From IMG/VR virus record IMGVR_UViG_3300014204_000003, positions 64,001 through 106,946 of that record: DNA of 42,946 nucleotides; one strand, given 5' to 3'. Origin of the DNA: a virus (Duplodnaviria; Heunggongvirae; Uroviricota; Caudoviricetes). Numbering within the stretch: position 1 is the first letter of the stretch; each line of letters starts with the position of its first letter. A model generated the notes under the pieces. That model was not told the origin of the DNA and searched no databases. It saw nothing but the letters and a program-made list of their open reading frames with translations. This document shows, piece after piece, positions 1 through 37,684 of this stretch. Made by a program: the position numbers and the translations under genes.

Positions 1-135
1 TACGGCTGCAAGTACCAAGTCCTTAGGGACAATACGCCCATGTTGACGTTTTTTAATCTTCTCAATTTCATGGGTCAGGACCTTAACATTGATCTTTTGC
101 CTTGCAGCCTTTTTTATCCCATAGTGGATATCCAT
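1..135 (-). CDS. Partial ORF running off the window end (MDIHYGIKKAARQKINVKVLTHEIEKIKNVNMGVLSLRTWYLQP...), hypothetical partner of the RAMP-like gene
   Basis: ATG at 135-133, 6 nt after the stop of the 142-819 gene; open to the window edge; not in the ORF track. Confidence 0.6.
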   Translation of the reverse strand, partial: MDIHYGIKKAARQKINVKVLTHEIEKIKKRQHGRIVPKDLVLAAV

Positions 136-141
136 AATTTA

Positions 142-819
142 TTACCTTTTGGATTTTTTAACACCTTGGTCATCAAACGCCTTAGTGTCCACATGGAAGG
201 CGCCATATTCTCCATTCTTTTCTTGGCGCCACTCTCCAACCCCGACAGCAAAACCCGCCGTGTTAAAAAGGTTGACAATCTGATCCCGGCTAAGGAGATT
301 AGCATTGAATGAAACCGCCAGAAGGCATTTCCATGGAAAGAACTGTCCGCGATATCGGATGTCGGCTACACCCATTCCTATGCGCACCATATCCTCGCGC
401 ATTTCAGGTTCCGATCCCTCAACAGCGACAAGATTAGTTCTCATTTCGGAACCGTTAAATACCGTTTTAACGGGAGCCATTTCTCCAATCACCCTAAATG
501 CTTGCCGGGCCGCAATCTTGGTTACTCCCGAAAGACTGGTACAAGCTGTTACGGCTGCATTCTTGAAAGCCACGGAGGGGAATCCGTATCTTCCATCAGG
601 CATCCTATAAAGAGAAGCTTCATAATCAGCAACAGGGTCCTTGGCTACTCTCCCGGCGTTAGGGTGTTTCATTTGCTTATCAAGCATTTCCTTAATAGCC
701 TTCTCGGCCCATCTGTGACAAATTAAAGCCGAATCTCCCACAATAGGGATCATCACGGTTTCGATATTCAATGTAGCTAATGAAATTCCAACGGCAACAT
801 CAGTTTTTTTAGCAACCAT
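142..819 (-). CDS. Stand-alone RAMP/Cas7(Csm3)-like RNA-binding protein (Vipr-like), ~225 aa
   Basis: Start reassigned to ATG 819 (GGGAG upstream). RAMP-like motifs in order: IPIVGDSALI (beta1), YGFPSVAFKNAAVTAC (cf. Csm3 IPGSSLKG), REDMVRI, IRYRGQF..W...L.V.F, and the C-terminal Gly-rich loop AGFAVGVGEWRQEKNGEYGAFHV. Confidence 0.75.
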   Translation of the reverse strand: MVAKKTDVAVGISLATLNIETVMIPIVGDSALICHRWAEKAIKEMLDKQMKHPNAGRVAKDPVADYEASLYRMPDGRYGFPSVAFKNAAVTACTSLSGVTKIAARQAFRVIGEMAPVKTVFNGSEMRTNLVAVEGSEPEMREDMVRIGMGVADIRYRGQFFPWKCLLAVSFNANLLSRDQIVNLFNTAGFAVGVGEWRQEKNGEYGAFHVDTKAFDDQGVKKSKR

Positions 820-844
820 AATTTTTAATTCTCCCGAAGTTATT

Positions 845-866
845 TTCCACAAGGTCCGCTGTGGAA
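845..866 (-). promoter_or_regulatory. Stem-loop between array and RAMP-like gene
   Basis: Minus strand TTCCACAG-CGGACC-TTGTGGAA: 7 Watson-Crick pairs plus one G-U; no U-tract. Confidence 0.5.
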
Positions 867-884
867 TCGCGGTACTACACTTAA

Positions 885-1593
885 ACTCCCAGACTGCCTC
901 GGCGCCCTTACCCCGACCCGCCCGAACTAAACTAGACTTTCCATAACCATCCTAGACTGCCATGCCTAACACACCAATCACAGACCAACCATCCTCTCCT
1001 CACTCAGCCTGTCCATGACTGCCTTGCCTGTCCCAGACGGTCCTTGCCGGTCCGTACCAATCCCCTCCGTACCTATCCATGACTGCCTTGCCTGCCATAC
1101 CAATCTCGCCTCGCCAATACGTTCCAGTACTTACCTTTCCTAGACTGCCTTGCCTATCCTCGCCGCACCGCTCGTCACCATAACTTCCTTGCCTGCCATA
1201 CCACGAAAATACCTCGCCACTTCGGGAATAGGCTTTATAGCCTGCCTAAACCCGCCCATCCAGTCCAGAACAAGAACCACCTTTCCTAGACTGCCTTGCC
1301 TCATCGCGCCTTGACACGACTATCCAATGAACGCCTTGCCTGCCCGGCCCGAACTTCCATTCCGCTACTCGCCACACCGGACCCTGACTGCCATGACTCT
1401 CCTCGCCGCCCTGACCGCTCCTAAACACACCCATCCCTGACTGCCAGACCAATGCTCGACCGGCCATGCCGTTACGCGCCTTAACGCTCCTCGCCGCACC
1501 TTGACTGCCATGCTGTTACCAGACAATCCCCACATTACCTCGACTGCCCGGACACGCCTCTCCATAACTGACCCCTCAATAACCTACCATGAC
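885..1593 (-). repeat. Noncoding array of 5-nt-periodic G[G/T][A/C/T]NN units punctuated by GGCA-GTC junctions (putative guide-RNA array)
   Basis: Ten exact GACTGCC (+ strand) at 892, 955, 1017, 1081, 1143, 1289, 1386, 1439, 1503, 1542; spacings 63, 62, 64, 62, 146, 97, 53, 64, 39. Example block 1083->1024: gtcat ggata ggtac ggagg ggatt ggtac ggacc ggcaa ggacc gtctg ggaca ggcaa. Confidence 0.9.
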
Positions 1594-1600
1594 AAAATAT

Positions 1601-3781
1601 TTATAAGATTGAAATATCCCCATTGCAAAGTTCTATCCGGGAATCCGCCAAATCCTTCAGCCGATCCTGATGGGCAATGAAACAGACTTTCTGGAAATTC
1701 CCAATCTCTTTTGCCCGGCGAAGCATCTGGATGTATCGAGGAGCATTTTCATCATCCAAGGCGCCAGTGGTTTCATCCCGGAAGAGAGTTTGCCAAGAAA
1801 CGCCGGATTTCATTTTATTGAAAACGGCAATTGCCAAGCTTACGGATTCAGCGATGACGACCTGTTCTCCCCCAGAGTATCCATCGATACTCCCTTCCCG
1901 GCCTTTCTCGGAATCGATAGCGATGATGTCAAATTCGTCCTTATATCCGTTCCCATCCGCCTTGAGAACCTGAGTGACGAATTTGATACTGAATCTTGGT
2001 CCGAAGCATGAGAATAAAAGGTCATTTGTAATACTACTCACAGTCGGTCCGGCCGCATCTATTTCCAATGATTGAATCCCGGAAGGGCCGAATGCGTCAT
2101 TCAGGAGGCTCCATTCCTTCTGGTCCCGTTCGAGAGCAGTAATATCTCTCATGATAGGCACTAACTTCTTGCTGGATGCCACAACTCTAAACTGGAGGTC
2201 TTCAGCTTGGGTTATCTGCTTATTAAGACTATTGACATCACCTTCAGCAACTACCTTCAATGCGGAGGCGGTACTGTAATCGTTATTGGCAATAACCAAA
2301 GATTCGTTATAAGAAACGATATTTTTGCCTTCTGATTTAGCTTTAATGATTGCCGCTTCGGCGTGATCCTTCCCTTCTTCAGCGGCAATCATTTGCTCTT
2401 TGATTTCTCCGACCTTGGCTTTCGCCTGCTCTACTTGGCTGGAGATTGAGACTATTTTCTCGAGAGTTTTAATTCGAGGTTCAATAATTGAGAGTTTCCT
2501 CTCCAATCCTTCTATTTGGAGGTCATAATTAGCAATTAGGTCGGCATTTGGCTTTGGAATAGCTTTCTGCTCATCCTGAATCTTGAGCATTGATTGAGTG
2601 GTATTCAGAAGGTCAACCTGAAAACCATCAAGATTTTCTCTGGCTTCCGTGGCGCGAAGGAGGAATTGGCATTTTGCAAAATCACCCTCAGCCTTGCATG
2701 GAACCTCATCAATAGTGGCAGAGGCTAATTGAGCGTCTGCAATTGATTTTTCACAGAGTTTCTTTGTACTTTGAAGCTGCAACCAGCGTTGCCGGAGTTC
2801 ATTAACCTGCCTGTCGTACTCCACTTTTTCCAATTGAAGGTCCCGGCGCTGGATGTTTAATTGATTCAGTTCTTTTCTGGTATCTGCCTGAGTGGTCCGG
2901 GCGACCGATAATTCCTGATTCGCCTGTTCTACCTGATCTGCGCTTTCCAGTAATTTTTGGGTAATATCCAATCGTGTTTTTAAACCAACGATCTTATTTG
3001 TAAACCCGGTATACTTTTCCGTCTCTGCGGCTATAAGGTCCTGAATCCCCTTTAACCCGGACACCTTGGATTTAAGGGACCCTATTAATTCTGCCAATTC
3101 ACATATTTTTTCAGATATTTTGCGGACATTCTCTTTGCTGGTATCCAGTCTAATTTTTAACTGCTCAATATCTGGCACTTCTTCTTTTGACTGTCTCTCG
3201 ATCGTTGCCGCTTCCGACCGCTTTGCTAGGAGTTCGGAACTGCATAACTGGTGTTCTTTGCGAAACTCCTCTGTTACGCGCTGGAGGAGTTCGAGATTGA
3301 GCATCTTAATAAATAGGCCTTTGCGCTCAATCTTTGCGAGTTTAATGAAGCTTCCACGCTTATTCTGGGCCGCGAAAGAACTCGCCATCACCATATCGGA
3401 GTTTCCGAATAGCTTGGCTACTATGGCATCGAAATCCTTTGTCTTTCCGGTTATTCCCGGAAGAGGATTCTGTTGATCGTCGTAGAGGAACGCCTCCATC
3501 TTCGAATACACAGCATCTATGTTGACTACCGCTTCATAAATCTTGCCGTGCCAGTCGAATTTGAAATCAACCAAAGCATCCCTGCCCTTGCAGAATTCAT
3601 AAACACCAGGCCTCGAGGGAAGCATCCGATACAGAGAGAGAAACATCGATTCCATCAATGATGTTTTCCCTTGGCCATTTTTCCCGGTAATAGCGATAAG
3701 CGATCCGGGGATATCTGAGAAATTCACATGGATGTCATTCAGAACAGTGACGCCCCTGACCTTCATTTCGATCGGTATCAT
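1601..3781 (-). CDS. sbcC: SbcC/Rad50-like SMC ATPase
   Basis: Walker A GKNGQGKT, long coiled coil, signature YSGGE, Walker B FRDE, H-loop IAHQ. Start reassigned to ATG 3781 (ATGA overlap with upstream gene). Confidence 0.9.
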   Translation of the reverse strand: MIPIEMKVRGVTVLNDIHVNFSDIPGSLIAITGKNGQGKTSLMESMFLSLYRMLPSRPGVYEFCKGRDALVDFKFDWHGKIYEAVVNIDAVYSKMEAFLYDDQQNPLPGITGKTKDFDAIVAKLFGNSDMVMASSFAAQNKRGSFIKLAKIERKGLFIKMLNLELLQRVTEEFRKEHQLCSSELLAKRSEAATIERQSKEEVPDIEQLKIRLDTSKENVRKISEKICELAELIGSLKSKVSGLKGIQDLIAAETEKYTGFTNKIVGLKTRLDITQKLLESADQVEQANQELSVARTTQADTRKELNQLNIQRRDLQLEKVEYDRQVNELRQRWLQLQSTKKLCEKSIADAQLASATIDEVPCKAEGDFAKCQFLLRATEARENLDGFQVDLLNTTQSMLKIQDEQKAIPKPNADLIANYDLQIEGLERKLSIIEPRIKTLEKIVSISSQVEQAKAKVGEIKEQMIAAEEGKDHAEAAIIKAKSEGKNIVSYNESLVIANNDYSTASALKVVAEGDVNSLNKQITQAEDLQFRVVASSKKLVPIMRDITALERDQKEWSLLNDAFGPSGIQSLEIDAAGPTVSSITNDLLFSCFGPRFSIKFVTQVLKADGNGYKDEFDIIAIDSEKGREGSIDGYSGGEQVVIAESVSLAIAVFNKMKSGVSWQTLFRDETTGALDDENAPRYIQMLRRAKEIGNFQKVCFIAHQDRLKDLADSRIELCNGDISIL

Positions 3782-4047
3782 AATCTCGTAACCTTTCCGT
3801 TGTTTTCCGGATACCAGAAAATAGCATCCCGGCCGGCTTCTTTTAAAATTAAGGGTCCATGAGGGACAAAGAACCCATTCAGAAGCCCAATAAGTTGGGC
3901 AGTTCCCCATATGGATACTTTATCTCCGTCATTTTCGTAATAACCTCCCGCGGACCCGCAATCACAAGTCCTTGGGTCCGGCTTTCCGGATTTGAATCCA
4001 CGGAGTTTTATTACATCATGGCATTTGGTGCAGAAGATCAGTTTCAT
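3778..4047 (-). CDS. Small Cys-rich, probably Zn-binding protein
   Basis: CTKC and CDCG motifs; ATGA overlaps with both neighbours. Confidence 0.7.
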   Translation of the reverse strand: MKLIFCTKCHDVIKLRGFKSGKPDPRTCDCGSAGGYYENDGDKVSIWGTAQLIGLLNGFFVPHGPLILKEAGRDAIFWYPENNGKVTRL

Positions 4048-5186
4048 CGACAGCGTTGCTCCACAACTGATAATTTCTGTTTCATCCGGATAACAGTCTC
4101 CTCGCTAGGACGGTTATTATTAGCCAACCAATACGCTTCGAGTTTTTCCTCGAGACTCTGAGCTTTGGATATCTCCACCGAACGGACCAATTCCTTGGGT
4201 ATGGTCTGCGGCTCTATCTTTACCTCAAGGGCGCCGGCCGCCAGAAGAATCTTTTCAAGTTCCTCCCGGGCATGCGCAAGATCATCGCCTTCTTCTATTT
4301 TGAGGAGTGCCCGGACTCTGGCGCCTTTCGCTCGAGCCAGCATTTCATTGAATTGCTCGCCTGTCATGGATAACTGGAGAGGCCAGATGCAGTCGACGCT
4401 GAATCGATCGACAGTTTTTAGTTGATACCATTGGGTACTTCCTTCGTCGGTATCCAGAATGACGCAATATTTTTCGGGGTCTTCTCCATAATTCATTGCG
4501 GCCGGAGATCCAGGATATGAGAAAAGATCGCTCGCCGTAAGAGGCTGATGAAGATGAATATGCCCGAAGATCCCGCCATAGAGTCCGGATTCGGAGAGGT
4601 CGTTTAGTCCAAACCCAATCCCTTCTCCGATTAATGGTTGGTGGTTCTGTGCCTGAGCTCCAGCCACAGAGAGATGGCTTATCAGAATATGGGCAATACC
4701 GGGATACTTCGCACTGTAGAGCATGACATTATTCTTCACGTATTGGAGGCCCATTTGGGAAACGGTCTTATCCCCTTCATCTTTGGACATTCCAATATTA
4801 TGAGATTGCCATGTTGCCTTTGTGAACCATGGCAGGACGTGGAAAAGGTATCTGTTGGTTCCCGGGTCCGGGAAATATATATGAGGGCTATCGAATATCA
4901 GGATAGGGTGCTTGACCTCGAGATGCCCGAAGATATCCAAGTCTCCGGGCTGATCATGATTCCCGTAACATCCGATGACCGGAGCAACCGAGCATAATTC
5001 TTGGATAAGCCGTTGAAGTAGATTCCGGCCGTCCGCGGTGCTCTTATGATCGAATAGGTCTCCGGGAAGAGCGATATAATCTACTTTATGATCCCGGAAG
5101 ATTTGAGCTATTTGCAGGACGGATGATTCCACGTCCGCGTCCATTCCGGCGCCTATATGCCAGTCTGCTGTTCCACCAATTCGCAA
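4044..5186 (-). CDS. sbcD: SbcD/Mre11-like metallophosphoesterase nuclease
   Basis: DWH, GDLFD, GNHD, SH and GHIH motifs, YPGSP; TTG start with AAGGAG RBS; adjacent to sbcC. Confidence 0.9.
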   Translation of the reverse strand: MRIGGTADWHIGAGMDADVESSVLQIAQIFRDHKVDYIALPGDLFDHKSTADGRNLLQRLIQELCSVAPVIGCYGNHDQPGDLDIFGHLEVKHPILIFDSPHIYFPDPGTNRYLFHVLPWFTKATWQSHNIGMSKDEGDKTVSQMGLQYVKNNVMLYSAKYPGIAHILISHLSVAGAQAQNHQPLIGEGIGFGLNDLSESGLYGGIFGHIHLHQPLTASDLFSYPGSPAAMNYGEDPEKYCVILDTDEGSTQWYQLKTVDRFSVDCIWPLQLSMTGEQFNEMLARAKGARVRALLKIEEGDDLAHAREELEKILLAAGALEVKIEPQTIPKELVRSVEISKAQSLEEKLEAYWLANNNRPSEETVIRMKQKLSVVEQRCR

Positions 5187-5203
5187 GGTTCTCTCCTTTT
5201 TAT

Positions 5204-5231
5204 GGGGAGCCTATCTCTCCCCTGTTTTTTT
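5204..5231 (+). terminator. Intrinsic-terminator-like hairpin on the antisense (+) strand
   Basis: GGGGAG-CCTATCT-CTCCCC followed by TG and a T7 run on +; no U-tract on the minus (coding) strand. Confidence 0.5.
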
Positions 5232-5348
5232 CAAGTATCATGATTTCAATCTAGGGTTTTCTCTCTCCGGCACTCCTTTGAATAGAAATATGAACATAAG
5301 CCAACACCATGTTGGCAGTTTTCTCCCCGGATAGGATCAGGGAAACTT

Positions 5349-6389
5349 TTACTGAATATCTGGTAACTTAGAGAGAGAATCTTCGATAGCGAATAATTCG
5401 CCATCATTTAACTCTGACAGAGGAGGCCGCCCGGGAGATAGTTCTTCCCGTGTTTTGCCTTTCTTGGTGGCATAGAGCTTGGTGATTCTCTCAATTTGGT
5501 CATCACGATCAACCCAATATCTCCGCTCCATCTGTTCATCAGGATCCAATGATTCCAATGGTTCAATATTGGCAGCGGGGAGCGCAACCGGAGGCGGAAC
5601 CTCTGGAAGCTGCGGGTTTTGTGCTGCATCAATCTGGCTGGCAGTATCGGCCTCCAGCCTCATGACCTTAAACAGTTCATTCTCAATTCCCATCTGCTTT
5701 GCGGCCATAATGGTAATGAGTTTTGATTTGATAGCCGGATCGATTGCATCAATGTTGAATGCCATACGCAAAACGACAAACGGCTTTTCCAATTCTTCAG
5801 GGAAATAACTGCTCTGGATACCGAGAAGGCCTCGGAGAACCCTAAGCTTTGCCTTAGTGATAGTTAGTTGCTCAATATTTTGCCGGGCCTTCGCCAGTTG
5901 CTCGGGGTGCCCAACCATTGAGACCGCCTGAGGAGAATCTTCGCGCAGGTCATATCCGAACCCATCGCTTTGGGACCTTACTTGACCATCGATATCCCGG
6001 ATATAACCAGTGGCTTGATATCGGCATACATGAGAATTCTTCCCATCATCTACCCTATGGATGGTAGACTTCCCGCTTTTGGGATCTTCCCATGACACTC
6101 CTGCCAACTGTTCGAGGCGCCATAATCCAATTTTTGTCAGGCCGACCTTTCTGGTCCCTTTGATAGGATAGAGTTCTTGGTCGACATAATCCCCTTTGGC
6201 ATTTGTCTTTGTGCTGATGAGATATTGGTGGATGAAAACATTCCATCCTTCAGGAAGGTAAGGCACAGAGGACCGGCAGAAGGGAGTTAGAATATGAGCC
6301 CTGTCTCGGGCGGCAGTAAGTTCTTTTTGAACTGTTTCTAAATCGTGGAAAACTGAGCTACGCAGGACTAACGACTGATTTGATGCCAT
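5349..6389 (-). CDS. Hypothetical protein, possibly a single-strand annealing/recombination protein
   Basis: Strong RBS (GGAGGG). First gene of the operon containing sbcD/sbcC. GLTKIGLWRLEQLAGVSW motif and Pro-rich linker before a small C-terminal domain. Function inferred from context only. Confidence 0.4.
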   Translation of the reverse strand: MASNQSLVLRSSVFHDLETVQKELTAARDRAHILTPFCRSSVPYLPEGWNVFIHQYLISTKTNAKGDYVDQELYPIKGTRKVGLTKIGLWRLEQLAGVSWEDPKSGKSTIHRVDDGKNSHVCRYQATGYIRDIDGQVRSQSDGFGYDLREDSPQAVSMVGHPEQLAKARQNIEQLTITKAKLRVLRGLLGIQSSYFPEELEKPFVVLRMAFNIDAIDPAIKSKLITIMAAKQMGIENELFKVMRLEADTASQIDAAQNPQLPEVPPPVALPAANIEPLESLDPDEQMERRYWVDRDDQIERITKLYATKKGKTREELSPGRPPLSELNDGELFAIEDSLSKLPDIQ

Positions 6390-9657: not shown

Positions 9658-12600
9658 TTATTGGTTTGGTGGGGGCTCAAGTCCCGAGCCGGGGGGAGAC
9701 GGCAACGACTCCGACTTTTTACTTAGCATATTTTCATAATGATCAAGAGCTCCGGCGGCGATACCATCCATTACTTCTTTGATCTCTTTAATTCGAGCAT
9801 CTTTAAGATCGGTTGGTATATTGACATCACCCCTGAGGGACCACAGCCGTCGTTCTTGATTAGAGAGGTTCCGGCTTGTCCGCGCAAACCTTCCTTTCAG
9901 CTTGGCCAAAGGATACCGCTCTAGTAATTTTTTGCGGTCTTCTCCTTTATTGATCCTATCTGCGACTATTGTGGATTGCCTTTGGACATCCTGATTGGCG
10001 TTAGCAAATCTCCGTGTGTTATCCCCAATATTTCGTTTTTCCCTGGATCGATCCTTAGACGCTTCTCTGATAATACGGGCTTCTTTCCTTTCCCTTTCTA
10101 TTGTTCCATAACCTCCAATCTTAACTACCCTTCCGGCAAATTTCCCGAAAACCGGATCATATTGAGTCCATGTCTGATACCAATTCTGGTCAGAATTATC
10201 GAACGTCTGATATTGACCTAACCCCAATTGATTTACAGAGAAGAGAAACATCCTCCAGTTAGCTTCCAATGACAATCTGCCTTCTTCGGCAACATCTGGA
10301 GGAAGAACATTTCTTCCCCGGAATCCATCCTTTGGGTTCCTTCCCTTGAGATAGAACTCATAATAGGCAGAACCTAACTGTCCGATTGGGGACAGACTTG
10401 GAAGCAGCGCCGTCATGAAATCGACAACATTTTGCCATGTATTTGGATCATTGGCTTCCATGCCCCTGAGTATTGTGGACATAATCCCAGTAGAAAGCCG
10501 GGATCCTTCATCCAAAGGCATGGAGAAGAATATGGGTTTACCGTCCTCTGTCTCTGCAAATGGGACATTCAGGTAATTCGATTCCATGTAATCGGAAATC
10601 TGCCCATATTTATCCTTAAACCAATCGCTAAGTTCATCTCCTAAAAAGCTCTTAAGAGCGCCGGCCGCCAGTAAAGCTGCAAGCACTTTAAGGAAGGCAA
10701 TCTTGCCAGCACGGAGGATATACCCTCCTCGAGTATTCGGATTGGCGAAGGTCTGATATTCACTCACCCACCCTTGGAGGAACATGGTTGCAAACGGGAA
10801 GATTCGGTTCATGTATCTTCCAGCCTTGCCCTGCCGGTACCATGCCGGAGTGCTGGTAAACCGTCTCATGTTGAAAGCGAGCGTTTTCCCTTTTTCCCCG
10901 GCGCCTACGCGAACGATGTGTCCAGCCGTTTTGCCCATCAATTCGAATAATTGGCTTGGGTAAGAAAGCTTTTGGAGGATCCACATCGCTCCCCGATACA
11001 TCTTGGCTGCCGACCTGGGATCGATATCGCCATTATCAGTTATAACCCCGACTCTCTTAAGCAAATGATGATAAGGATCATTTTCTTGGGACACTACATT
11101 GGAAACTGACACCGACCATTCATAGGAAGAAACCATTTCCTTAATCATGTCATCGCCCTTGCCAGCCAGCCAAGAACGGACATGTGGATAGGCTTGGCCA
11201 TAAGCGCGAAGTAATTGAATAAAGTCTCCGAAAAAGACTGTATTCTTGAGAGGAAGCTTTTTGTAATTACTCCAGAAGTCTCTATTGGGATTTCCCCATC
11301 CTCCGAACCCTAGATTATAGAGAATAACTATCTTCCACCACACTTCATGGAAATGGTTAAGCCATTTAAAGCCATTGGCAATAGGAGTGGGACCTCTCTG
11401 GTTGATGGAATCAGCGATGTATGGGTCCATTTGGTATCCAACCGTTTTGCCGTTCTCGAGAATTTCCACAACTTTCTTGTCAGGTTCGGCTCTCCAAGTC
11501 GGAATTACATCGGTGGTTACGATAGGTTCAGCTTTGGATACAGCTCCGTGCTCATAGCTTCTGAAGAAATCGATGGTAGCCCGTTTGGCTTCTTGAATGG
11601 TAATGAGATCAATCAAGGCCAGTCTCATTTTGATATCTGAGATAATTGGATTCTCAACATCCCCAGCAAACCCGATCTGAGCCCGGACCATAGGGCTAAC
11701 ATATTTCGATATATGTTCTGCTGATACAAACTTCACGTAATTGTATTTATTTTCCTCGAAGCTTTCCTTGGCCCGTTCGGGATATATCCCCACTTCAAAT
11801 GCTTTCTCAACCAGTGGCCAATAGGCATCCGTGTAGGCATGGGCGGTATCTTCCAAAGCTTTGAATTTGACATCCCCCATTCTCTCGCGCAGCCGGTCCA
11901 GCGTTTCGGTCGCGTAGGCGCCACCGGCTATTTTGGGGTTCGCCACATTTGCTCTCTGAGTGGAAGAGCGGTGCAGAAACATATAAATCCCTAAAGCCAT
12001 ATAGGGACTGAAAGGCTCATTATTCTTAATAATGGAAGTCTTTCCGCTGGGGCTTTCCACAACCAGAGATTCAAATTTATCGTATCCAATGTCTTGTGCG
12101 GTAATCTTTGCCGGAAGAAGATATTTTTCGAAAACATCTTTCTGGAGCTTATCCATGAAGAGCCATCGATTGTTGTAGCTCTTGAAATTAAGTTCATCCC
12201 AGAGATATTTAGGATTCTTGGTTTCCGGGATAAGACAGCCGGCCTTTTGAGCTCTATTAACGCGCTGCTCGGTTTCCCATCTCATATCAAAAACATAGTC
12301 CTTAATACTCCCCCAAAATGCCCGATGAAGCTCATGGACTTCCTGTTCGATATTTCTGGAGATAGCTTCCGCCTTCTGGATCATTCCTCCCACCAGATTA
12401 ATTCTATTGTCCAGGTAATCTTCCGGAGTGTTACCGGACATCATCATCCTCAACTTGACATAGGCGTCCTTGAATTCCGGTTTCCGGTCAAGATAAGCAT
12501 GGAACTCCCGGGTAAACTTCGGAGCCAGCCGACGAGCGGTTCCCGGAGAATTGAGCATCACGGACACAAAATCAGCGTAGAGCTCTCGAGGGCTTCGGCG

Positions 12601-15600
12601 ATACTTAATATATCCCTCAGTTTCCTTCTTGGGGTCGTAAGGCTTCCAGTATTCACTGAGAGCGATAAGTTCATCTTTGAATTCCTTGGCAGCGGGGATT
12701 ACCTTATCCCAATGTTTTTTGCGCATACGGCGAAGAGTAAGCAACCGGCCAAGTAAATTGCCCCGGTTGAGTGTCTTGTCTGGAAGCCAATCAGCCAAAT
12801 GGCCAATTTCATGAGCCATAGTACGAGCTAATTGCTCTCGATTCTCAGCCTTAAACAGGTCCGGACGGATTTCGATCTTTCCTTCATCGATTCCCGTAAA
12901 CCGGCCAAGACTTGAGCTCAGTCTTTTATTGAGCATGATTGGCTTGCCGGTAAGTTCATGAACGATATTCATTAACTCCGGAATTTCAATTCTTCCCCAC
13001 ATGTCCTCTTCGGTGACATCCGAGGTTCCGTCACCATAGGAAATAATCCGGAATTGGTGGGACTGATCATCTATAGTCCATCCTTGAGTAACCGGCTTCA
13101 CTACCGCAGTTATTGGGTCCAAGATAATGCCGGCCTTACTTTCAACCTCATCGATAATTTCCTGAGGGATCCTGCCTTGAGAAAGCCGCGGGGATATCGT
13201 TTTCGTTTCAATAGTGGCGATATGGTTGGGGCCCTTTTCCTCTTCTCTCGCCGATGCGTACATCTTTTTCCCGACCTTGGCTTCGGCAATATCAGTGCCC
13301 CATCCAGACCTTGTAGTAATGGAAGGAACTTCATAATCACTTGCCGTTTCTGGCTGTTCTCCAGGAGTGGTTTCCATATCCTCTGGAGGAGTGGGTAGCC
13401 CTTCTTCTTTCTTTGGGCGGACCTTTGCTTTTCTTGGCTTGATATCCAATCCGCTGACAAATGCCCTGTCTCCTAACTGTTCTTCTCCTATACCGCGTTC
13501 CCGGGCCAGTTCTTCAATGGTTTTATCGAGACGTTTGGCGTCTTCATATAAAGTAACGAAGTCAGTTGCTTTCTTGAATTCGCTATTTAAGGTATCCAGC
13601 CGCTCCATTAACTTAGTGATTTCCTCTTGAAGCTCATCCCTTTCCGCATACGTTTTCTGGATATTATCTTTATGCCCCTGATATCTCCGGCGAAGGCTAT
13701 CGCTTGCTTCTCCTCTTGCAAAGGCTTGCTCTATGTCGTTGATACTTTTTTCGCGCCATTGGACATCATCAAGAACATTCTTTAAATGGCTGTGTTTTCT
13801 TTCGACAATGGCGGTTATTTCCTGTTTCGCCTTCACTACTGAGGTTATTGCATGTTTCGCCCGGAAGTAATCCAGAGTATCGGTATTAATTCCGGCCGAA
13901 TCCGAAAGCTCTTCGAAGTTTCGCCCATCCTGATCAAAGTCTAAAACCTCATCGGCTTCTCCTGTCCAGAGTTCCAATCCCCATTGATACTTTCTCGCTA
14001 TGAGGTCATACATTTTTGCATCACTGGTTCCTCCGACGAGGAAGCGATAGATTTTAACACTATCGTTTTTATTCCCCTGCCGGAGTCCACGGCCGTCCGC
14101 CTGTTCCATTGCTGCAAAGTTATATGGGACATCAATATGATAAATGGCATTGGTGGAGGTCTGAAGGTTCATCCCTTCGCCCATAGCCGCCCGACTGCCA
14201 ATAAGGAATCGTATCTTTCCTTCGGCATTTAACTGCTGAAGCTTGAACTTTGCTTTGGCGCCGGAATTAACCTGCCCATTTACGATTGCAATTTGATCCT
14301 CTGGGATCCCACTTTCGACAAGGCGATCTTTAATAACCTGGTGCAGGTTTACCAATTCAACAAAATGCTCGTTTTTCTGCTCTTGCTGGAGGTCATCGTC
14401 GTTATCTCCCGTTGCAGCTTTGCCGGAGTCAGGATCATCTTCTTCGGTGATTCCACCACGATATAGATCAAGAAAGACTAATTGAGTGTTTTCGCCCGTA
14501 TCATTGTCGATCATGAGCCTAACGACTTCGGCTATCTTGGTCCCGGGTTCACCAACTTTATCTTTAAATTCCTCAGCATCATAGATAGCCGCATCCGCAG
14601 CTAGTTTCCGCGCTCTGGTAAGAATTGACAGATGATTGATCCCATCCATTTGAGCGGCGATGGGATCACTCTTCAGATAATCCTCGAGCCATGCGATGTA
14701 GCCGGCCGCTTCCGTTATCGGGCCAGTCGGGGGAAGTTTGATGTCGATATATTCTGCATCCGGACGTTTGATTCCAAGCATCTCAATAGTGCGGAAATCA
14801 ATATAACGCCGGAAGATATTGCGCAACTCAGTCAGGTTTTTGTATCCTGCCCATACTGTTTTGGATGTTGGAACGCCTAAGGCGCCCTTAACTTCCCTGG
14901 TTTCCATTCTTCCAAACTGCTCAATAAAATCTCCCGCATTATTAATGCCGCGATTCGTCCATTCATCCGGAGCTACATACTGCATCATGACGTAGATTTC
15001 TGCTGGATGGTTTGGGGTAGGAGTAGCGGTCATCATCCAAACATTCTGACCTTTTCGGCCGCCCCGGCGCTCATGAATGTAACGGGTTTTATAAATCATA
15101 TCATCAGCGCGTTGTGCGGACTTGGCCTCCCGAACGTATTCCGCCATATCCGCATAATCACGTGAGGCATTTTTATAGTTGTGCCCTTCATCGATCATGA
15201 TGGCGTCAACTCCAAGATCCTCAAAATACATGGTCTTGGTTTTCTTCATCTGTTGCAGTTTAGTGAGTTTTTCCTCGAGACGAAGAAGAGCATTCTGAAT
15301 ATCCTGCTCATGTTTCTTTGCTCTCTTGTCTGATTGCTTTGCTGACGCTTCCTGCGCTGCCCGGAGGCGGTCCTCGAGTTTTTTGATATCCTCTTGGATA
15401 TATTCCTCTGACTTTCGAAGAGGAATCTCTTTCATTCCTTCAAATGTTGCGAGAACAAAATCCGCGTCACTGACAGCAAGCCGCTGGAGCATCTTGTATC
15501 TATTATTAGCATCCATCCCGGACATATCTACGATTTTTGCATCCGGAAGAGCTTGAGATATTTCATAGGCCCAGTTTTTGACAACCTTGGACGGGACAAT

Positions 15601-18600
15601 AATTAATGGCTTTTTAACCTTATTCCTGTTTTTTAAATGAGCCGCCAAGAGAATGGCTGTTAAGGTTTTACCTCCTCCGACTGCATAGGAGATAATTCCG
15701 CTGCCTTGGTGCGTCATTCTGCCAACGCCCTGCCATTGGTGAGGATTTATCGTTAAGAGCTTACCCTTGAATACCGCACTCAGCCCGGGGATATCCAACT
15801 GCTTAGGAGAATAGAACCTTTCCCTGAATGATCTATAGGCACGGTTATATTTTGGAGTGATGCTTTCAAATTTATTGAGATTTTCGTTTCCCCACTTCCT
15901 GAATTGCTCAGAAATGGCGGTATATATCTTCTCTCCTGTCTGGTCGTAAATCTTTTTCATAGTCGGCCGTCCGCGAGAATCAGTCCTCCCTGTAGGGACT
16001 TCTTTTTGGGGCCGATTATGATTCAGGTAATCCTGGATGAATTCTGTTGAAAAACTTTTAACCTTTTCAACGGAACGAGTCCTTTCAATTCCAAGGTCGT
16101 CTTTGTATTGCTCATCCTCCATGACTTTGGTTTCCTGCTGGCCGCCATAACTGGATTTAAGTTCCCAAAAATATCTGCCTTTAATAGGGTCCAGTTCCTT
16201 GGAAACTTTATCAATCCATGGAGCATATGAATGAAGGAAATCAATTACAATACGGTCCTCAATATAAGCTGAAAATGGGTCTGATCTTCGGACAACTTCT
16301 GCGGAATCGGCCTGCGGAGGAAGAACCTCACTCAGTTTTGCCAACTGATTCTTTAATGCAGCAATAATCCTATCTTTCTCTGGTCCTTCAGGATGGTCTC
16401 CGCGCACTTGGTCTAGCATCTGTACGGTCTGATCTATTTTGGGATGGATGTCACCAAACAGATATTCATCGTTGATTTGCATGATTGGCGCTGAGGACCC
16501 ATCCAAGGCTTCAATGCTGAAATCCGGGTTCCCTACGAGCCGGGATGCCATCTTATTAATAACATCCGGAGTCATTTGATCTGGACCGATCAGGCCTTCC
16601 CCGTTATATCTCGCGGCAACTTCAGCCCAATCCATATCTCCTGTGTATTCATAAATGAATTTTGCCGTATCCACCAAATCCGTAGCATCAAACTCCCGGG
16701 GTTCCGGAGGAGGAAGGTACAGATTATTCTCAGAAAATATTTTACTCAGGCTGCCATCTGATTCAGTTAAAGCGGCAAGCTTCCACACTCGAGGATCAGC
16801 GAAAGGATACGGGCTGGCCGCAGGTCCTCCATTCAGATATTTCCATAAGTTTGGATCCGATGCCGGCGAACCGGTCGGATTCTGTTTATCGGTTGCCCAT
16901 TTCTTCTGATAAGCTGCCAAGAGAGGCTTTATCTGCGCTCTTAGGCTATCAGCGGTATCGACATCGTTATTTCTGAGAGACTTAAATAGATCATCGGCAA
17001 GTTCTACTAATTTAAGACCTTCTCTAACTCGATGATATGGCGAATCTTCCTTTTTGGTTTTCTTTGTGGAAATCTTTGGAAGCTCGGTTGCCTCGAGAAT
17101 TACCCCAGTTCCAGACTGAGCAAATCCCCATTTGCCTAATTCATCCATCCAGACGATAGTTCCGGGCACCATCCCCTGAGGAGTTTCTCCAAGGACATCC
17201 CGAATCTGCAATTCTTCATCTTCTTCAATCTTTGCAGTTGTCTCTTTGGCTTCATACCGGACATCATCGAGGAGAGCATTCTCTAACATTTCGGCATATC
17301 TTTCCTTGTCCATGACTACGCCGACTCTAGTTTCCTGCCCGGCCCGTACTCCATGTCCGGGCTTTAATTCCCCCCAAGCTTTCTCAGGGTGCTTTACGTA
17401 CCATTGGGAGAGATGCCCTCCGATGGGATTCTCATCTCCATATAAGGAGTTTATAAAGTCATCCTGATAATCGTCTTCTTTCCAGTTTTCAATTTCCTCC
17501 GGAGTGCGCTTTCTCAGGAAGATAATATCCGTGCTTCCATCGTATTGAGTATTGGCATGGTATTCTCCGGCTGGAGTTCGATAGGCGCCCAAGAACTCAG
17601 CCTTCCGGTTAATGCGCTTCCGGACATCAACCTTGCCCTTGCTAACACCGTCCATAGTCCCGGTACTGGTAATGAACATGACAACACCATTGGGCCGCGT
17701 CATATCCAGGGACTTCACAAAGAAAAAGTCATGAAGGGCTTTTATGTCTTCGTATTCTTTAGCTTCTTCTGCGTACCTCGAGGCGCCGCGGGCAGCATTG
17801 AATGGGACATTGCTCGCCATTACATCAAGATCTCTGCGCGGCATGAATTGCTCGAAGGGCAATTCCCTGATATCGGCATCCGGATAAAGAAGCCGGGCCA
17901 CTCTTACCGCGGTGGGATCAATTTCAGTCCCAAATAGTTTTGCATCGGCCGGCGCAAATCCCGGGATATTACCAATTCCGAATGCAGGGTCCATGACTTT
18001 GAGATTATCCATGGGGAATCCCATAGACCGGAGCTTGTCCCATTTCCAAGCGCAAATCCTGTAAGAGGTATAGTGTTCATAAAGGACACCCCTCTCCTGT
18101 TCTGTACTTCCAAGTCCGCCAGAACCGGTGTATCTCCTGAGGAGTTCAGTTTCCTCCTCTGTGAGGGGGTCTCCGGGCTGTTTTTTCTCTACGAGCTCTG
18201 CAACCTTGGCATTAATTTCACGCCGCTGGGTTTTAGTGAGGACTACGGATTTTCGCCCTCGAGGGGAGAATCGGGCCCCTTTTCTGGATTCTGCTTCAAT
18301 ATCTGATTCTTTAGCAGCTCCTCCAATTCCTTGCTCGGGGGGTAGCCCAAGAGAAGATCGTGTGTCAGGTCGCTCAGTAGGTTCGATTCCCCCAGTTTTG
18401 CCACCACCTTCGGGAATGATTCCTTCACCTTGCTCACGATCTCCTTTGCTCGCTTCTCCGCCTGATAAATCCGCGCCAACTCTGTCGAATGCTGCATAGA
18501 CTCCTCCGGTTCCACCGACGTAATCTTCCTCGCCGGTTATAGCCGACCATATTTTCTTGAATAATGGTTCGAGGACATCTCCGAGACCTTCCGCAATGTC

Positions 18601-36747: not shown

Positions 36748-37134
36748 TTATGTCCCTCGAATGAACTGAATTCTGAAATAAAAGACTCCTACCTGCCCAA
36801 GCTGGTAAATTTCTCCGGGGATGATAGATTCATGAAGCAGTAAGTTGCCTCCAACCGCAGCATCAAAAACACCCCAGTTGGTTATCGTTTTAAGGGCATT
36901 GGCTACTATCGCACCTGTCAGTTTATAGGAGTCTCCGACAGAACTTACCGTATCGATCTGACTCGTCATGACCGGACGGGCTTCTGACGCTTCGGTGAAA
37001 AGAGTCAGATCAGCAGGAGCAGCATTGCCGGCACCTGTACCCCATGCAAAATACAGCGGTTCATTTCCAATGCCTTTTAAGCGATTGGCAATGATATTCA
37101 ACCCTTCATCAGTGACACAGGAAATTGATGCCAT
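36748..37134 (-). CDS. Tail-fibre attachment-domain-like protein
   Basis: TDEGL...YFAWGTG....D.TL.TE...ITNWGVFDA..GGNLL pattern typical of fibre N-termini and collar proteins. Confidence 0.6.
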   Translation of the reverse strand: MASISCVTDEGLNIIANRLKGIGNEPLYFAWGTGAGNAAPADLTLFTEASEARPVMTSQIDTVSSVGDSYKLTGAIVANALKTITNWGVFDAAVGGNLLLHESIIPGEIYQLGQVGVFYFRIQFIRGT

Positions 37135-37152
37135 TTAACCCTCTTGAATGGA

Positions 37153-37449
37153 TTAATGTTCTTCGTACAGTCCTTGAACACCCTCTCCGGCTGTGCCAAT
37201 GACATAAATCGAACTCAAATCCATCCCATTCCCAAAATCTTCGCTGAGAGTAATCTTTTCAACCGGAGTTGTCGCATTTGCTGGCGGGATTAATTCAATC
37301 CCGGTTGCCGCAGATGGCCCAAGGTAAATCGCATTACTATTTGTCCTCATAGGAGAAATAATAAGGGTTTTTGCCTTTGTCCCTTCCACTGTGATAGGTT
37401 CCGGCATTTCAGTTTCGCTCAATATTTTACTGAATCCTTTCCAACCCAT
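37153..37449 (-). CDS. Hypothetical protein (98 aa)
   Basis: Start reassigned to MGWKGF (37449, AAGGAG RBS). Confidence 0.7.
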   Translation of the reverse strand: MGWKGFSKILSETEMPEPITVEGTKAKTLIISPMRTNSNAIYLGPSAATGIELIPPANATTPVEKITLSEDFGNGMDLSSIYVIGTAGEGVQGLYEEH

Positions 37450-37459
37450 TACATTCTCC

Positions 37460-37684
37460 TTAGTGACCCTGACGATTACAGACAACAGTTCCGGGGAGGT
37501 CTTCATCATCCAAAATAAATGGCGTGATAAATTGCCCGCCGGCCTTAACTCCACAATCCGGGACTGAGAAATCCATCGATGGATCATCCGCGGACCTTCC
37601 ATCGGGAATTTTGTGTCCAGTCGGCGCCTGGTTGAAAGTAGAACAGGGCCGTTGATCATTTGGTTTTATTTCATTGCGACTCAT
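37460..37684 (-). CDS. Hypothetical protein (74 aa)
   Basis: GGAGG RBS; fills the gap between neighbours. Confidence 0.65.
   Translation of the reverse strand: MSRNEIKPNDQRPCSTFNQAPTGHKIPDGRSADDPSMDFSVPDCGVKAGGQFITPFILDDEDLPGTVVCNRQGH

What the first reader, a model, noticed from the sequence alone, without database searches (positions are those of the whole stretch)
142..1593. Candidate non-CRISPR RNA-guided system: stand-alone RAMP/Cas7-like gene plus a pentamer-periodic guide array (VIPR-like)
Seen: a ~710-nt noncoding tract with strict 5-nt periodicity starts 7 nt after the sbcC stop and ends ~65 nt before a ~225-aa gene on the same strand. That gene has RAMP-like motifs, and there is no cas1/2/3/5/6/8/10 and no direct-repeat/spacer array in the window. 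Established: Cas7/Csm3 RAMPs polymerise along RNA with a fixed nucleotide footprint per subunit. Inference: the constant 3 nt of each pentamer bind one protomer and the variable NN are displayed for target pairing, a non-contiguous guide code. From memory and unverified, this matches VIPR (Viral Interference Programmable Repeat) systems, reported to bind gapped dsDNA targets (every third base skipped) and act against competing phages.
Basis: partly seen in the sequence, partly recalled or inferred. Interest (0 to 1): 0.97.

Follow-up and report, generated by a model that had tools for sequence, protein, structure and literature searches.

The report
VIPR guide-RNA system in a phage
An uncultivated 107-kb phage carries a compact cassette of the recently described VIPR kind: a Cas7-like protein, a small partner gene, and an array of five-base repeats that most likely encode gapped guide RNAs used against rival phages. 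This is a new member of a kind published in 2026, not a new kind of system.

Summary
VIPR is real and was published as three bioRxiv preprints in 2026.

- **Array.** Window 885-1593 (minus strand) is a 709-nt array of G-[G/T]-[A/C/T]-N-N pentamers, punctuated by 4-nt GGCA register resets. The parse scores far above shuffled sequence.
- **Protein.** The 225-aa gene (142-819) folds as a RAMP. Its five best AlphaFold DB matches are exactly the five founding Vipr accessions of the discovery paper. Its only PDB sequence match is the SUSP1 Vipr protein. The residues that hold the GGY bases in SUSP1 align with residues conserved here.
- **Partner gene.** A 156-aa gene directly downstream is conserved at that position in about 75 of 80 related viral loci, so it is a vap-like partner.
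- **Cassette.** Two related 109-kb phages have sbcC directly next to ssb. Array, vipr and vap are therefore one accessory unit, and sbcC is only a neighbour.
- **Code.** In relatives' arrays the published one-base-skip rule gives matches that shuffled guides do not, including a guide against another phage's vipr gene.
- **Targets.** For this phage only one candidate was found: guide U2 matches 23 of 24 positions in a baseplate-hub gene. That is suggestive, not proven.

Expression and processing are untested.

The parts
885..1593 (-). vrRNA array: about 13 guide blocks of G-K-H-N-N pentamers separated by 4-nt GGCA register resets. The constant boundary reads GGCA-GGCAA-GGCA-GTCNN.
   Evidence: Period-5 autocorrelation. 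Viterbi parse with log-odds 82.8 against shuffles of at most -25.7, and per-position composition. Boundary repeat family at 62-64 nt spacing. No Rfam family, sigma-70 promoter or terminator.
1446..1505 (-). Guide block U2: 12 perfect pentamers. It is the only guide with a candidate natural target.
   Evidence: Under the one-base-skip rule, 23 of 24 NN positions match two DNA-diverged baseplate-hub genes in IMG/VR contigs (L082, L084).
1024..1083 (-). Guide block U9: 12 perfect pentamers. No target found.
   Evidence: Parse. No exact 9-NN core hits in IMG/VR. One metagenome hit at chance level.
142..819 (-). vipr gene: 225-aa minimal RAMP (Cas7/Csm3-like) protein. G-loop G193-V-G-E-W-R198, thumb hairpin about residues 139-160, RBS at 829-835.
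   Evidence: AF2 model with pLDDT 81. Foldseek PDB top hits are Csm3 (E 2e-5), and VIA Z is 9.7 and 9.3 to Cmr and Csm3. AFDB ranks 1-5 are the five founding Vipr accessions. Profile hit to the PDB chain of SUSP1 Vipr at E 1.1e-6. Self-association model scores 0.52 against a best control of 0.00.
1..135 (-). 5' part of the vap-like accessory gene. The full gene is 156 aa at genome 63,665-64,135 (L001:1021-1491, minus strand) and starts 7 nt after the vipr stop.
   Evidence: Conserved directly downstream of vipr in about 75 of 80 related viral loci. phrog_15946, function unknown. AF2 model with pLDDT 89 and only weak winged-helix-like resemblances.
1601..3910 (-). sbcC-like gene: upstream neighbour that marks the cassette's edge. 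It is not part of the system.
   Evidence: phrog_77. In related phages L118 and L119, sbcC is followed directly by ssb with no array, vipr or vap. SbcC, SbcD and SSB are absent near vipr in 80 relatives.

Best explanation
Window 1-1593 (minus strand), together with about 340 nt beyond the window's left edge, is a VIPR (Viral Interference Programmable Repeat) cassette inserted between sbcC and ssb of a complete 107-kb phage with direct terminal repeats.

Most likely mechanism, by homology with the SUSP1 and P. fulva systems:
1. The array is transcribed on the minus strand, probably by read-through from the sbcD-sbcC operon.
2. Vipr protomers polymerise head-to-tail along the RNA, one per pentamer. 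Each protomer clamps the G-K-H bases through the conserved His35, Arg157 and Glu196-Trp197-Arg198, and displays the two variable bases.
3. The displayed dinucleotides pair with double-stranded DNA in which every third base is skipped. Binding silences transcription of a rival mobile element.
4. The vap-like protein assists at the DNA.

The 4-nt GGCA resets break the 5-nt register and so delimit individual guides of up to 12 repeats.

Shown here: the anatomy, the family membership, the cassette boundaries, and the validity of the skip rule in this clade. Inferred: transcription, processing at the resets, DNA rather than RNA targeting, repression as the outcome, and the identity of the targets.
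For: **Literature.** VIPR is defined by a Vipr RAMP, GGY/NN vrRNAs, a vap gene, viral loci and a one-base-skip code.

**Protein.**
- Foldseek against AFDB clusters returns A0A0F9A1L0 (E 3e-14, TM 0.69), X1U2U4, A0A661D0E2, A0A2D6XG06 and A0A1F4YLN4 at ranks 1-5. These are the five founding Vipr hits named in the paper's methods.
- The only PDB sequence match is 36pp_D, 'SUSP1 Vipr protein', at E 0.024 with the single sequence and 1.1e-6 with the family profile.
- In the significant stretch of that alignment, SUSP1 R138, D177, W178 and R179 (the GGY contacts) align with R157, E196, W197 and R198. All four are invariant in 37 homologues.
- In the stretch that is not significant on its own, SUSP1 H17 and K33 align with H35 and K51, which are nearly invariant (90% or more) in the same alignment.
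- The fold is Csm3/Cas7-like.
- A three-copy model supports head-to-tail contact: score 0.52, best of 3 controls 0.00, runs agree in at least 68% of contacts, partner pLDDT at least 76. In the tool's calibration the mark was reached by 20 of 30 proteins solved as pairs of one chain and by 1 of 23 solved as single chains. Solved RAMP filaments exist, so the pass may reflect likeness to them.

**Array.** The grammar and its statistics are. NNNGG runs lie on the vipr strand in nearly all of 80 related loci.

**Cassette.** vap is conserved. The related phages G003 and G004 lack the array, vipr and vap, and their sbcC abuts ssb.

**Code in this clade.** Of 191 unique guides from 62 related arrays, 3 reach at least 0.9 NN match under skip 1. 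None do in 8 shuffled sets, in a reversed control, or under skip 0 or 2. One of the three covers the G-loop codons of another phage's vipr gene.

**This phage.** There is no self-target, as published. U2 matches 23 of 24 positions in two diverged baseplate-hub genes whose differences all fall on skip bases.
Against: - No RNA data exist for this phage, so transcription, processing and Vipr binding of the array are untested.
- Only 2 of about 13 blocks are perfect 12-pentamer runs. Others hold extra 4-nt steps and one non-periodic AT-rich insert, so part of the array may be decayed.
- Position 3 is A in 32% of repeats. The SUSP1 pocket excludes purines.
- Targets are not established. Five other guides gave no hit or chance-level hits. 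No guide hits the related VIPR-less phages or the family loci.
- The U2 hit is weak statistically. All 25 core hits in bacterial genomes were also in-frame peptides, so codon phasing is not independent support. By my hand estimate, a 5-of-6 extension has a chance of about 0.02 per independent core hit. That is about 0.05 within IMG/VR but about 0.4 over all databases searched.
- The candidate targets have 62% G+C against 47% for this phage.
- The vap-like protein has no significant structural match.
Confidence: 0.88

Rival explanations
1. The cassette is a genuine VIPR by descent but a decaying or idle one. The protein genes are intact, yet most guides have drifted out of register and no longer direct silencing.
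For: Only U2 and U9 are perfect 12-pentamer blocks. Extra 4-nt steps and a non-periodic insert occur in other blocks. G2 is relaxed to T in 33% of repeats and position 3 to A in 32%, against 14% and 6% in relatives. Most guides have no target above chance.
Against: vipr and vap are open, and every aligned contact residue is kept. Positions 1-3 remain far from random. The array is letter-for-letter identical in contigs from a 2018 landfill sample and 2022 groundwater samples. The searches could find exact cores only, so imperfect targets were missed. Internal degeneracy of vrRNAs is described as frequent in the discovery paper.
Confidence: 0.12
2. The complex targets RNA, or cleaves its target, as type III Cas7/Csm3 backbones do, rather than silencing double-stranded DNA by binding.
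For: The closest solved folds are the RNA-targeting Csm3, Cmr4 and Cas7-11. This clade is distant from SUSP1: the profile match covers only the C-terminal third. The function of its vap is unknown.
Against: Clade-level matches follow the one-base-skip geometry that was solved for DNA. The best hits in related loci lie on either strand of the genes. The discovery paper reports DNA recognition as the common logic of all seven types. I did not test for the catalytic Asp of the Csm3 type.
Confidence: 0.05
3. The pentamer tract is not a guide array but structural DNA, such as replication-origin iterons, a G-quadruplex tract or a recombination hotspot, that sits between the sbcCD and ssb genes.
For: It lies inside a replication and recombination gene block. 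It is G-rich on one strand (42% G). Its 62-64-nt boundary repeats resemble iterons.
Against: Related phages with the same sbcC-ssb block lack the tract entirely, and they lack it together with vipr and vap. The same grammar accompanies vipr homologues in dozens of unrelated contexts that have no sbcC or ssb. Guides from those arrays find xNN matches beyond shuffles.
Confidence: 0.02

Closest known systems
VIPR systems as a family (bioRxiv 10.64898/2026.04.26.720920), in particular the cluster of founding hit A0A0F9A1L0 and the 'staggered vrRNA array' architecture (legend of fig. S18)
   Same: A minimal RAMP with G-loop and thumb, whose best structural matches are the five founding Vipr accessions. 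A pentamer array with two hypervariable positions lies on the same strand. A two-gene vipr-vap core. A viral host genome. No self-targets. The 4-nt resets equal a 1-nt overlap between successive pentamer registers, as the fig. S18 legend describes.
   Different: The consensus is relaxed from GGY to G-[G/T]-[A/C/T]. The boundary holds two resets (GGCA-GGCAA-GGCA). The array lies upstream of vipr, whereas most of the 80 relatives place it after vap. The published type (I-VII) could not be assigned, because the tree and the supplementary data are not held.
Type II VIPR of Escherichia phage SUSP1 and the P. fulva prophage (structures in 10.64898/2026.04.26.720927; PDB 36pp)
   Same: The C-terminal third is homologous at profile E 1.1e-6, and the GGY-contact residues are conserved. 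One protomer per pentamer is expected. The one-base-skip code holds in this clade too.
   Different: Only distant sequence similarity (single-sequence E 0.024). No invariant 3' tail or pseudoknot, and no vrRNA units of about 100 nt. The accessory protein belongs to another, unnamed family.
CRISPR-Cas class 1 backbone RAMPs (Csm3, Cmr4, Cas7)
   Same: RRM core, glycine-rich loop and thumb hairpin. Foldseek E 2e-5 to Csm3 in 6xn3_F. VIA Z 9.7 (rmsd 3.5 over 147 residues) to the Cmr subunit 6s6b_I, and Z 9.3 (rmsd 3.5 over 150 residues) to the Csm3 chain 9g9a_D. Predicted head-to-tail self-association.
   Different: No repeat-spacer array. No other RAMP or cas gene sits next to it: its neighbours are sbcC and the vap-like gene. 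The footprint is 5 nt with three bases sequestered, instead of 6 nt with one base flipped. About 10% sequence identity.

Membership tests
VIPR (Vipr + vrRNA + vap) | The Vipr protein is a minimal RAMP: RRM core, glycine-rich loop, thumb, no second RRM. | tested here: met
   AF2 model with pLDDT 81. All top PDB matches are Csm3, Cmr or Cas7. G-loop GVGEWR at residues 193-198 and a beta-hairpin at about 139-160. A single domain of 225 aa.
VIPR (Vipr + vrRNA + vap) | Homology to published Vipr proteins. | tested here: met
   AFDB cluster ranks 1-5 are the five UniProt accessions listed as founding Vipr hits. The only PDB sequence hit is SUSP1 Vipr, at profile E 1.1e-6.
VIPR (Vipr + vrRNA + vap) | Residues that clamp G1, G2 and Y3 and the skip-base phosphate (SUSP1 H17, K33, R138, D177, W178, R179). 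| tested here: met
   They align to H35, K51, R157, E196, W197 and R198. R157, E196, W197 and R198 are invariant and H35 and K51 nearly invariant in 37 homologues. The H35 and K51 part of the alignment is not significant on its own.
VIPR (Vipr + vrRNA + vap) | An adjacent same-strand tract of at least 4 tandem YNNGG (GGY/NN) repeats, or a related consensus, with conserved GGY and hypervariable NN. | tested here: met
   129 pentamers. Position 1 is G in 90%, position 2 is G or T in 93%, position 3 is not G in 99%, and positions 4-5 have about 1.93 bits of entropy. The consensus is relaxed to G-K-H. The paper allows related consensuses.
VIPR (Vipr + vrRNA + vap) | A vipr-accessory (vap) gene in a two-gene operon. 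| tested here: met
   A 156-aa gene starts 7 nt after the vipr stop and is conserved at that position in about 75 of 80 loci. Whether it equals one of the published vap1-6 is not testable here.
VIPR (Vipr + vrRNA + vap) | Non-CRISPR context: no CRISPR array and no cas operon; mostly viral genomes. | tested here: met
   The record is a complete virus genome with direct terminal repeats. No repeat-spacer array in the window. The cassette is bounded by sbcC and ssb. I did not screen every ORF of the 107-kb genome against Cas profiles.
VIPR (Vipr + vrRNA + vap) | vrRNAs are expressed, processed and co-purify with Vipr. | not testable with these tools
   No RNA run holds this phage. The DNA contigs only show that the sequence is present.
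VIPR (Vipr + vrRNA + vap) | Guides match natural targets by the one-base-skip (xNN) rule, and there are no self-targets. | tested here: inconclusive
   This locus has no self-target, and U2 matches 23 of 24 positions in baseplate-hub genes, though with weak statistics. Other guides found nothing above chance. At clade level the rule is met: 3 of 191 guides reach at least 0.9, against 0 in all controls.
VIPR type II (SUSP1 / P. fulva architecture) | vrRNAs of about 100 nt made of 9-16 repeats followed by an invariant structured 3' tail (a pseudoknot in the SUSP1 clade). | tested here: not met
   Blocks are 39-64 nt. They are separated only by GGCA resets and a constant stretch of about 15 nt that is itself pentamer-like. 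No conserved structured tail and no Rfam match.
CRISPR-Cas type III / class 1 effector | A repeat-spacer CRISPR array plus cas genes (Cas10 or Cas5, Cas6, small subunit) with the Cas7 backbone. | tested here: not met
   No CRISPR array. The neighbours are sbcC, a vap-like gene and ssb. No PADLOC or NCBIfam model matches the two proteins.

The most novel reading that the evidence does not exclude
In this Vipr clade the 4-nt 'reset' (GGCN, here GGCA) may itself be the punctuation that makes guides. By breaking the 5-nt register it would stop the Vipr filament and expose the RNA for trimming, so guide length (up to 12 repeats) would be set by a protein ruler without a Cas6-like nuclease, ribozyme or structured tail. 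This phage's Vipr may also tolerate a purine at repeat position 3, which would be an altered pocket and a looser G-K-H handle.
Probability: 0.3. Interest if true: 0.55.

Novelty: new member of a known kind. Interest (0 to 1): 0.35.

Why it matters
VIPR was described only in 2026, and no curated profile library tested here (Pfam, NCBIfam, PADLOC) recognises either protein; PHROGs lists both only as families of unknown function. So loci like this are still annotated as 'hypothetical'.

This case adds four things:
- A clean natural insertion/deletion comparison that defines the minimal cassette as array + vipr + vap, about 1.9 kb.
- A member with a relaxed repeat handle and reset-punctuated guides.
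- Independent computational support that the one-base-skip code holds in a clade far from the characterised type II systems. That support includes a guide aimed at a rival's vipr gene.
- Compact native guides (U2, U9) for testing how staggered arrays are processed.

It does not open a new category.

Tried and rejected
- **Curated libraries.** Pfam, NCBIfam and PADLOC gave nothing for Vipr or the vap-like protein. PHROGs gave only families of unknown function.
- **Phage DNA similarity.** blastn of window 1-6000 against named phages found no match.
- **RNA families and signals.** The Rfam E-value scan of 1-2000 found nothing, so there is no hammerhead between units. Consensus promoter and terminator scans found nothing on the minus strand.
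- **Target scans, exact cores only.**
  - U9 3' and 5' cores, U11 and U0: 0 hits in IMG/VR.
  - U4: three exact 18/18 hits, at the chance-expected number. The two identical ones (L085, L086) lie out of wobble phase in a tail gene.
  - U9 10-NN core in metagenomes: one hit in a GNAT gene at 21 of 24, not in wobble phase, judged chance.
  - U2 core in bacterial genomes: 25 hits, all short in-frame peptide look-alikes, best 22 of 24.
- **Convergence of guides.** No other guide hits the whole 22.6-kb contig that carries the U2 site, the 80 family loci, or the two complete related phages.
- **RNA holders.** No RNA holder is listed for this stretch. Laying DNA contigs showed no variants in the array, so NN turnover could not be read from strains.
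- **vap homologues and fold.** The word-based homologue search for the vap-like protein found only itself. Its fold searches gave no significant PDB match, only weak winged-helix look-alikes at Z of 5.6 or less.
- **Second array.** A weak pentamer-like stretch at genome 41,517-41,571 lies inside a 404-aa ORF and was dismissed.
- **Type assignment.** VIPR type I-VII could not be assigned, because the paper's supplementary data are not held.
Full report
**Observation**

The window is the right-hand 42.9 kb of a complete 106,946-bp virus record with direct terminal repeats. Around the finding every gene is on the minus strand. In order they are sbcD-like (4044-5186), sbcC-like (1601-3910, phrog_77), a non-coding tract, and a 225-aa ORF at 142-819. 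This ORF has a GGGAGAA ribosome-binding site 9 nt before its ATG. Next comes a gene whose first 45 codons lie at 135-1.

The tract begins 7 nt after the sbcC stop, at 1593, and ends near 885. It shows period-5 autocorrelation with drifting phase. A phase-tracking parse resolves it into 129 complete pentamers covering 645 of 709 nt, with log-odds of 82.8. Shuffled sequences reach at most -25.7.

The repeat reads G (90%), G/T (60/33%), A/C/T (32/41/26%, G 1%), then two positions at nearly maximal entropy (1.93 and 1.92 bits). The register is reset by a 4-nt GGCA before each GTCNN. This gives about 13 blocks of 39-64 nt with the constant boundary GGCA-GGCAA-GGCA-GTC. Two blocks, U2 (1505-1446) and U9 (1083-1024), are perfect runs of 12 pentamers. 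Others hold extra 4-nt steps, and one holds a non-periodic AT-rich insert.

**What is known**

It is described in three bioRxiv preprints of 2026.

- The discovery paper defines VIPR as a minimal, early-branching RAMP (Vipr) together with vrRNAs of alternating GGY/NN motifs and usually one accessory gene (vap).
- The systems are mostly in phages and proviruses, without CRISPR arrays.
- Each NN pairs with double-stranded DNA while one target base is skipped.
- Seven types are described, with variant consensuses (NNNGG and others).
- Array architectures include 'staggered arrays' whose vrRNAs overlap by 1 nt.
- The structural paper shows one protomer per repeat. SUSP1 residues H17, R138, D177, W178 and R179 hold the GGY bases, and K33 contacts the backbone next to the skipped base.

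**The protein**

Pfam, NCBIfam and PADLOC do not recognise it, and PHROGs places it in a family of unknown function. It belongs to a very large family. The word-indexed search found 4,432 proteins, and the exhaustive search found 3,299 representatives at 50% identity. Where named they are almost all called hypothetical, and one AFDB cluster representative carries an automatic Cmr6 label. Members occur in Mycobacterium and Gordonia phages.

An AlphaFold2 model built on 37 homologues (pLDDT 81) matches only CRISPR backbone RAMPs in the PDB. Foldseek gives E 2e-5 to Csm3, and VIA gives Z 9.7 and 9.3.

Against AlphaFold DB clusters the five best hits are A0A0F9A1L0 (E 3e-14, TM 0.69, 28% identity), X1U2U4, A0A661D0E2, A0A2D6XG06 and A0A1F4YLN4. 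These are exactly the five accessions that the discovery paper lists as its founding Vipr hits.

By sequence, the only PDB chain found is 'SUSP1 Vipr protein' (36pp_D). The E-value is 0.024 with the single sequence and 1.1e-6 with the family profile.

In that alignment the SUSP1 contact residues map as follows:

| SUSP1 | This protein | Alignment stretch |
|---|---|---|
| R138 | R157 | significant |
| D177 | E196 | significant |
| W178 | W197 | significant |
| R179 | R198 | significant |
| H17 | H35 | not significant on its own |
| K33 | K51 | not significant on its own |

R157, E196, W197 and R198 are invariant and H35 and K51 nearly invariant across the 37 homologues.

A three-copy model supports head-to-tail contact between the thumb and G-loop face of one copy and the helical face of the next. 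The score is 0.52 and the best of 3 controls is 0.00. The runs agree in at least 68% of their contacts, and the partner's pLDDT is at least 76. In the tool's calibration the mark was reached by 20 of 30 proteins solved as pairs of one chain and by 1 of 23 solved as single chains. Because RAMP filaments have been solved, this pass may only reflect likeness to them.

**The cassette**

The gene immediately downstream of vipr has 156 aa and starts 7 nt after the vipr stop. Most of it lies outside the window, at L001:1021-1491 (minus strand). tblastn finds it directly after vipr in about 75 of 80 related IMG/VR loci. It belongs to phrog_15946 (function unknown) and folds confidently (pLDDT 89). It has no significant solved relative. 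The weak matches, at Z of 5.6 or less, are mostly winged-helix DNA-binding domains.

In nearly all of those loci, runs of NNNGG repeats lie on the vipr strand, usually just after the vap-like gene and rarely upstream as here. Their guides are 9-14 pentamers long and are separated by single 4-nt GGCN resets. Their position 3 is C or T in 93% of repeats.

Two complete related phages of 109 kb (SbcC 64-65% identical, SSB 70%) have the sbcC stop followed within about 11 nt by the ssb start. They have no vipr, vap or array anywhere in their genomes. Conversely, no sbcC, sbcD or ssb lies near vipr in the 80 relatives.

Array, vipr and vap are thus one accessory unit of about 1.9 kb, and sbcC is only a neighbour. 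A G+C-rich hairpin follows the vap stop.

**Does the code apply?**

The guides of this phage have no match in its own genome under skip 0, 1 or 2, as the paper reports for its systems.

Public collections could be scanned only for exact cores.

- The 3' nine dinucleotides of U2 gave three IMG/VR hits. Two of them (L082, L084) extend to 23 of 24 NN positions. They lie in homologous 492-aa baseplate-hub genes (phrog_184, DNA_circ_N). These genes share no blastn-level DNA similarity, and at the site they differ only at skipped bases.
- The same core in 596 Gb of bacterial genomes gave 25 hits. All were in-frame A[KN]AT[IM]R[DE][FL]L peptides, and they extended by at most 4 of 6 bases. Codon phasing is therefore not independent evidence.
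- From those hits I estimate by hand a per-base match rate of about 0.35. That makes the chance of a 5-of-6 extension about 0.02 per independent core hit. This is about 0.05 within IMG/VR and about 0.4 across everything searched.
- Other guides gave nothing above chance. No guide hits the related VIPR-less phages or the family loci.

The target of this array is therefore unresolved, and U2 against the baseplate hub is only a lead.

At clade level the result is clearer. I parsed 220 guides (191 unique) from 62 related arrays and scanned them against 730 kb of the family's own flanks, with the arrays masked. Three unique guides reached at least 0.9 NN match under the one-base skip. None did in eight shuffled sets, in a reversed control, or under skip 0 or 2.

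The three top matches were:
- 18 of 18 positions in a major tail protein gene;
- 22 of 24 in a ParB-methyltransferase gene;
- 20 of 22 over the G-loop codons (GVGEWRPEK) of another phage's vipr gene.

The last echoes the published finding that some vrRNAs target rival VIPR systems.

**Mechanism and rivals**

The best-supported reading is a functional VIPR. The array is transcribed with its operon, since no promoter or terminator consensus separates it from sbcC or vipr. Vipr then polymerises on the RNA in 5-nt steps, the NN dinucleotides read gapped DNA, and a rival element is silenced.

The role of the resets as guide boundaries is inferred from three things:
- the fig. S18 legend, which describes vrRNAs overlapping by 1 nt;
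- the fact that the U2 match spans exactly the 12 pentamers between two resets;
- the 9-14-repeat spacing of resets in relatives.

The rivals are a decaying array, RNA rather than DNA targeting, and structural DNA. Each is weighed in its own section of this report. None explains the co-inheritance of the array with vipr and vap as well as the VIPR reading does.

**Novelty**

This is a new member of a known, very recent kind. What is particular to it:
- the relaxed G-K-H handle, with A at position 3 in a third of the repeats;
- the double-reset boundary;
- the array placed upstream of vipr;
- the clean insertion/deletion comparison with sister phages.

The same phage, with an identical array, is present in contigs from a 2018 landfill run and from 2022 groundwater runs. 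The first of these may be the source of the record. Two other first-reader notes in this scan cover this same stretch and agree with the grammar and the Cas7-like reading.

Noticed in passing
L038:5212-5266 and L041:5212-5266 (guides); L003:2710-2742 (target): A guide in two related viral contigs matches 20 of 22 NN positions over the G-loop codons (GVGEWRPEK) of the vipr gene of a third contig. This looks like an anti-VIPR guide in a clade distant from SUSP1.
   Followed up: partly
own genome 63,625-63,655, minus strand (outside the window; L001 about 981-1011): A G+C-rich inverted repeat (9-bp stem, 6-nt loop) lies directly after the vap-like stop and before the ssb ribosome-binding site. 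It may be the terminator or the 3' edge of the cassette.
   Followed up: no
window about 1215-1246, minus strand: This is the only non-periodic interruption of the array. It is AT-rich and holds a small palindrome (AGGCT-ATAA-AGCCT) and a TATAAA box, so it may be an internal promoter or an insertion scar.
   Followed up: no
window 9658-22728 and 28623-32945, minus strand: Two giant ORFs of 4,356 and 1,440 aa lie in the structural region. The 1,440-aa ORF had no PHROG match at E up to 1e-5; the 4,356-aa ORF was not searched.
   Followed up: no
L118 and L119 (G003, G004): Two complete 109-kb sister phages lack the whole VIPR cassette, and their sbcC abuts ssb. They are useful natural minus-VIPR comparators.
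   Followed up: yes
phage records (for example NC_023580.1 at 36991-37560 and MW534375.1 at 10364-10942): 27 Mycobacterium phage records, five Gordonia phage records and one cyanophage record encode homologues of this Vipr (26-42% identity). All are annotated as hypothetical proteins.
   Followed up: no
own genome 41,517-41,571, plus strand (outside the window): A short pentamer-like G-K-H stretch (score 12.9 against 20.3 for the array) lies inside a 404-aa minus-strand ORF. It is probably chance.
   Followed up: partly
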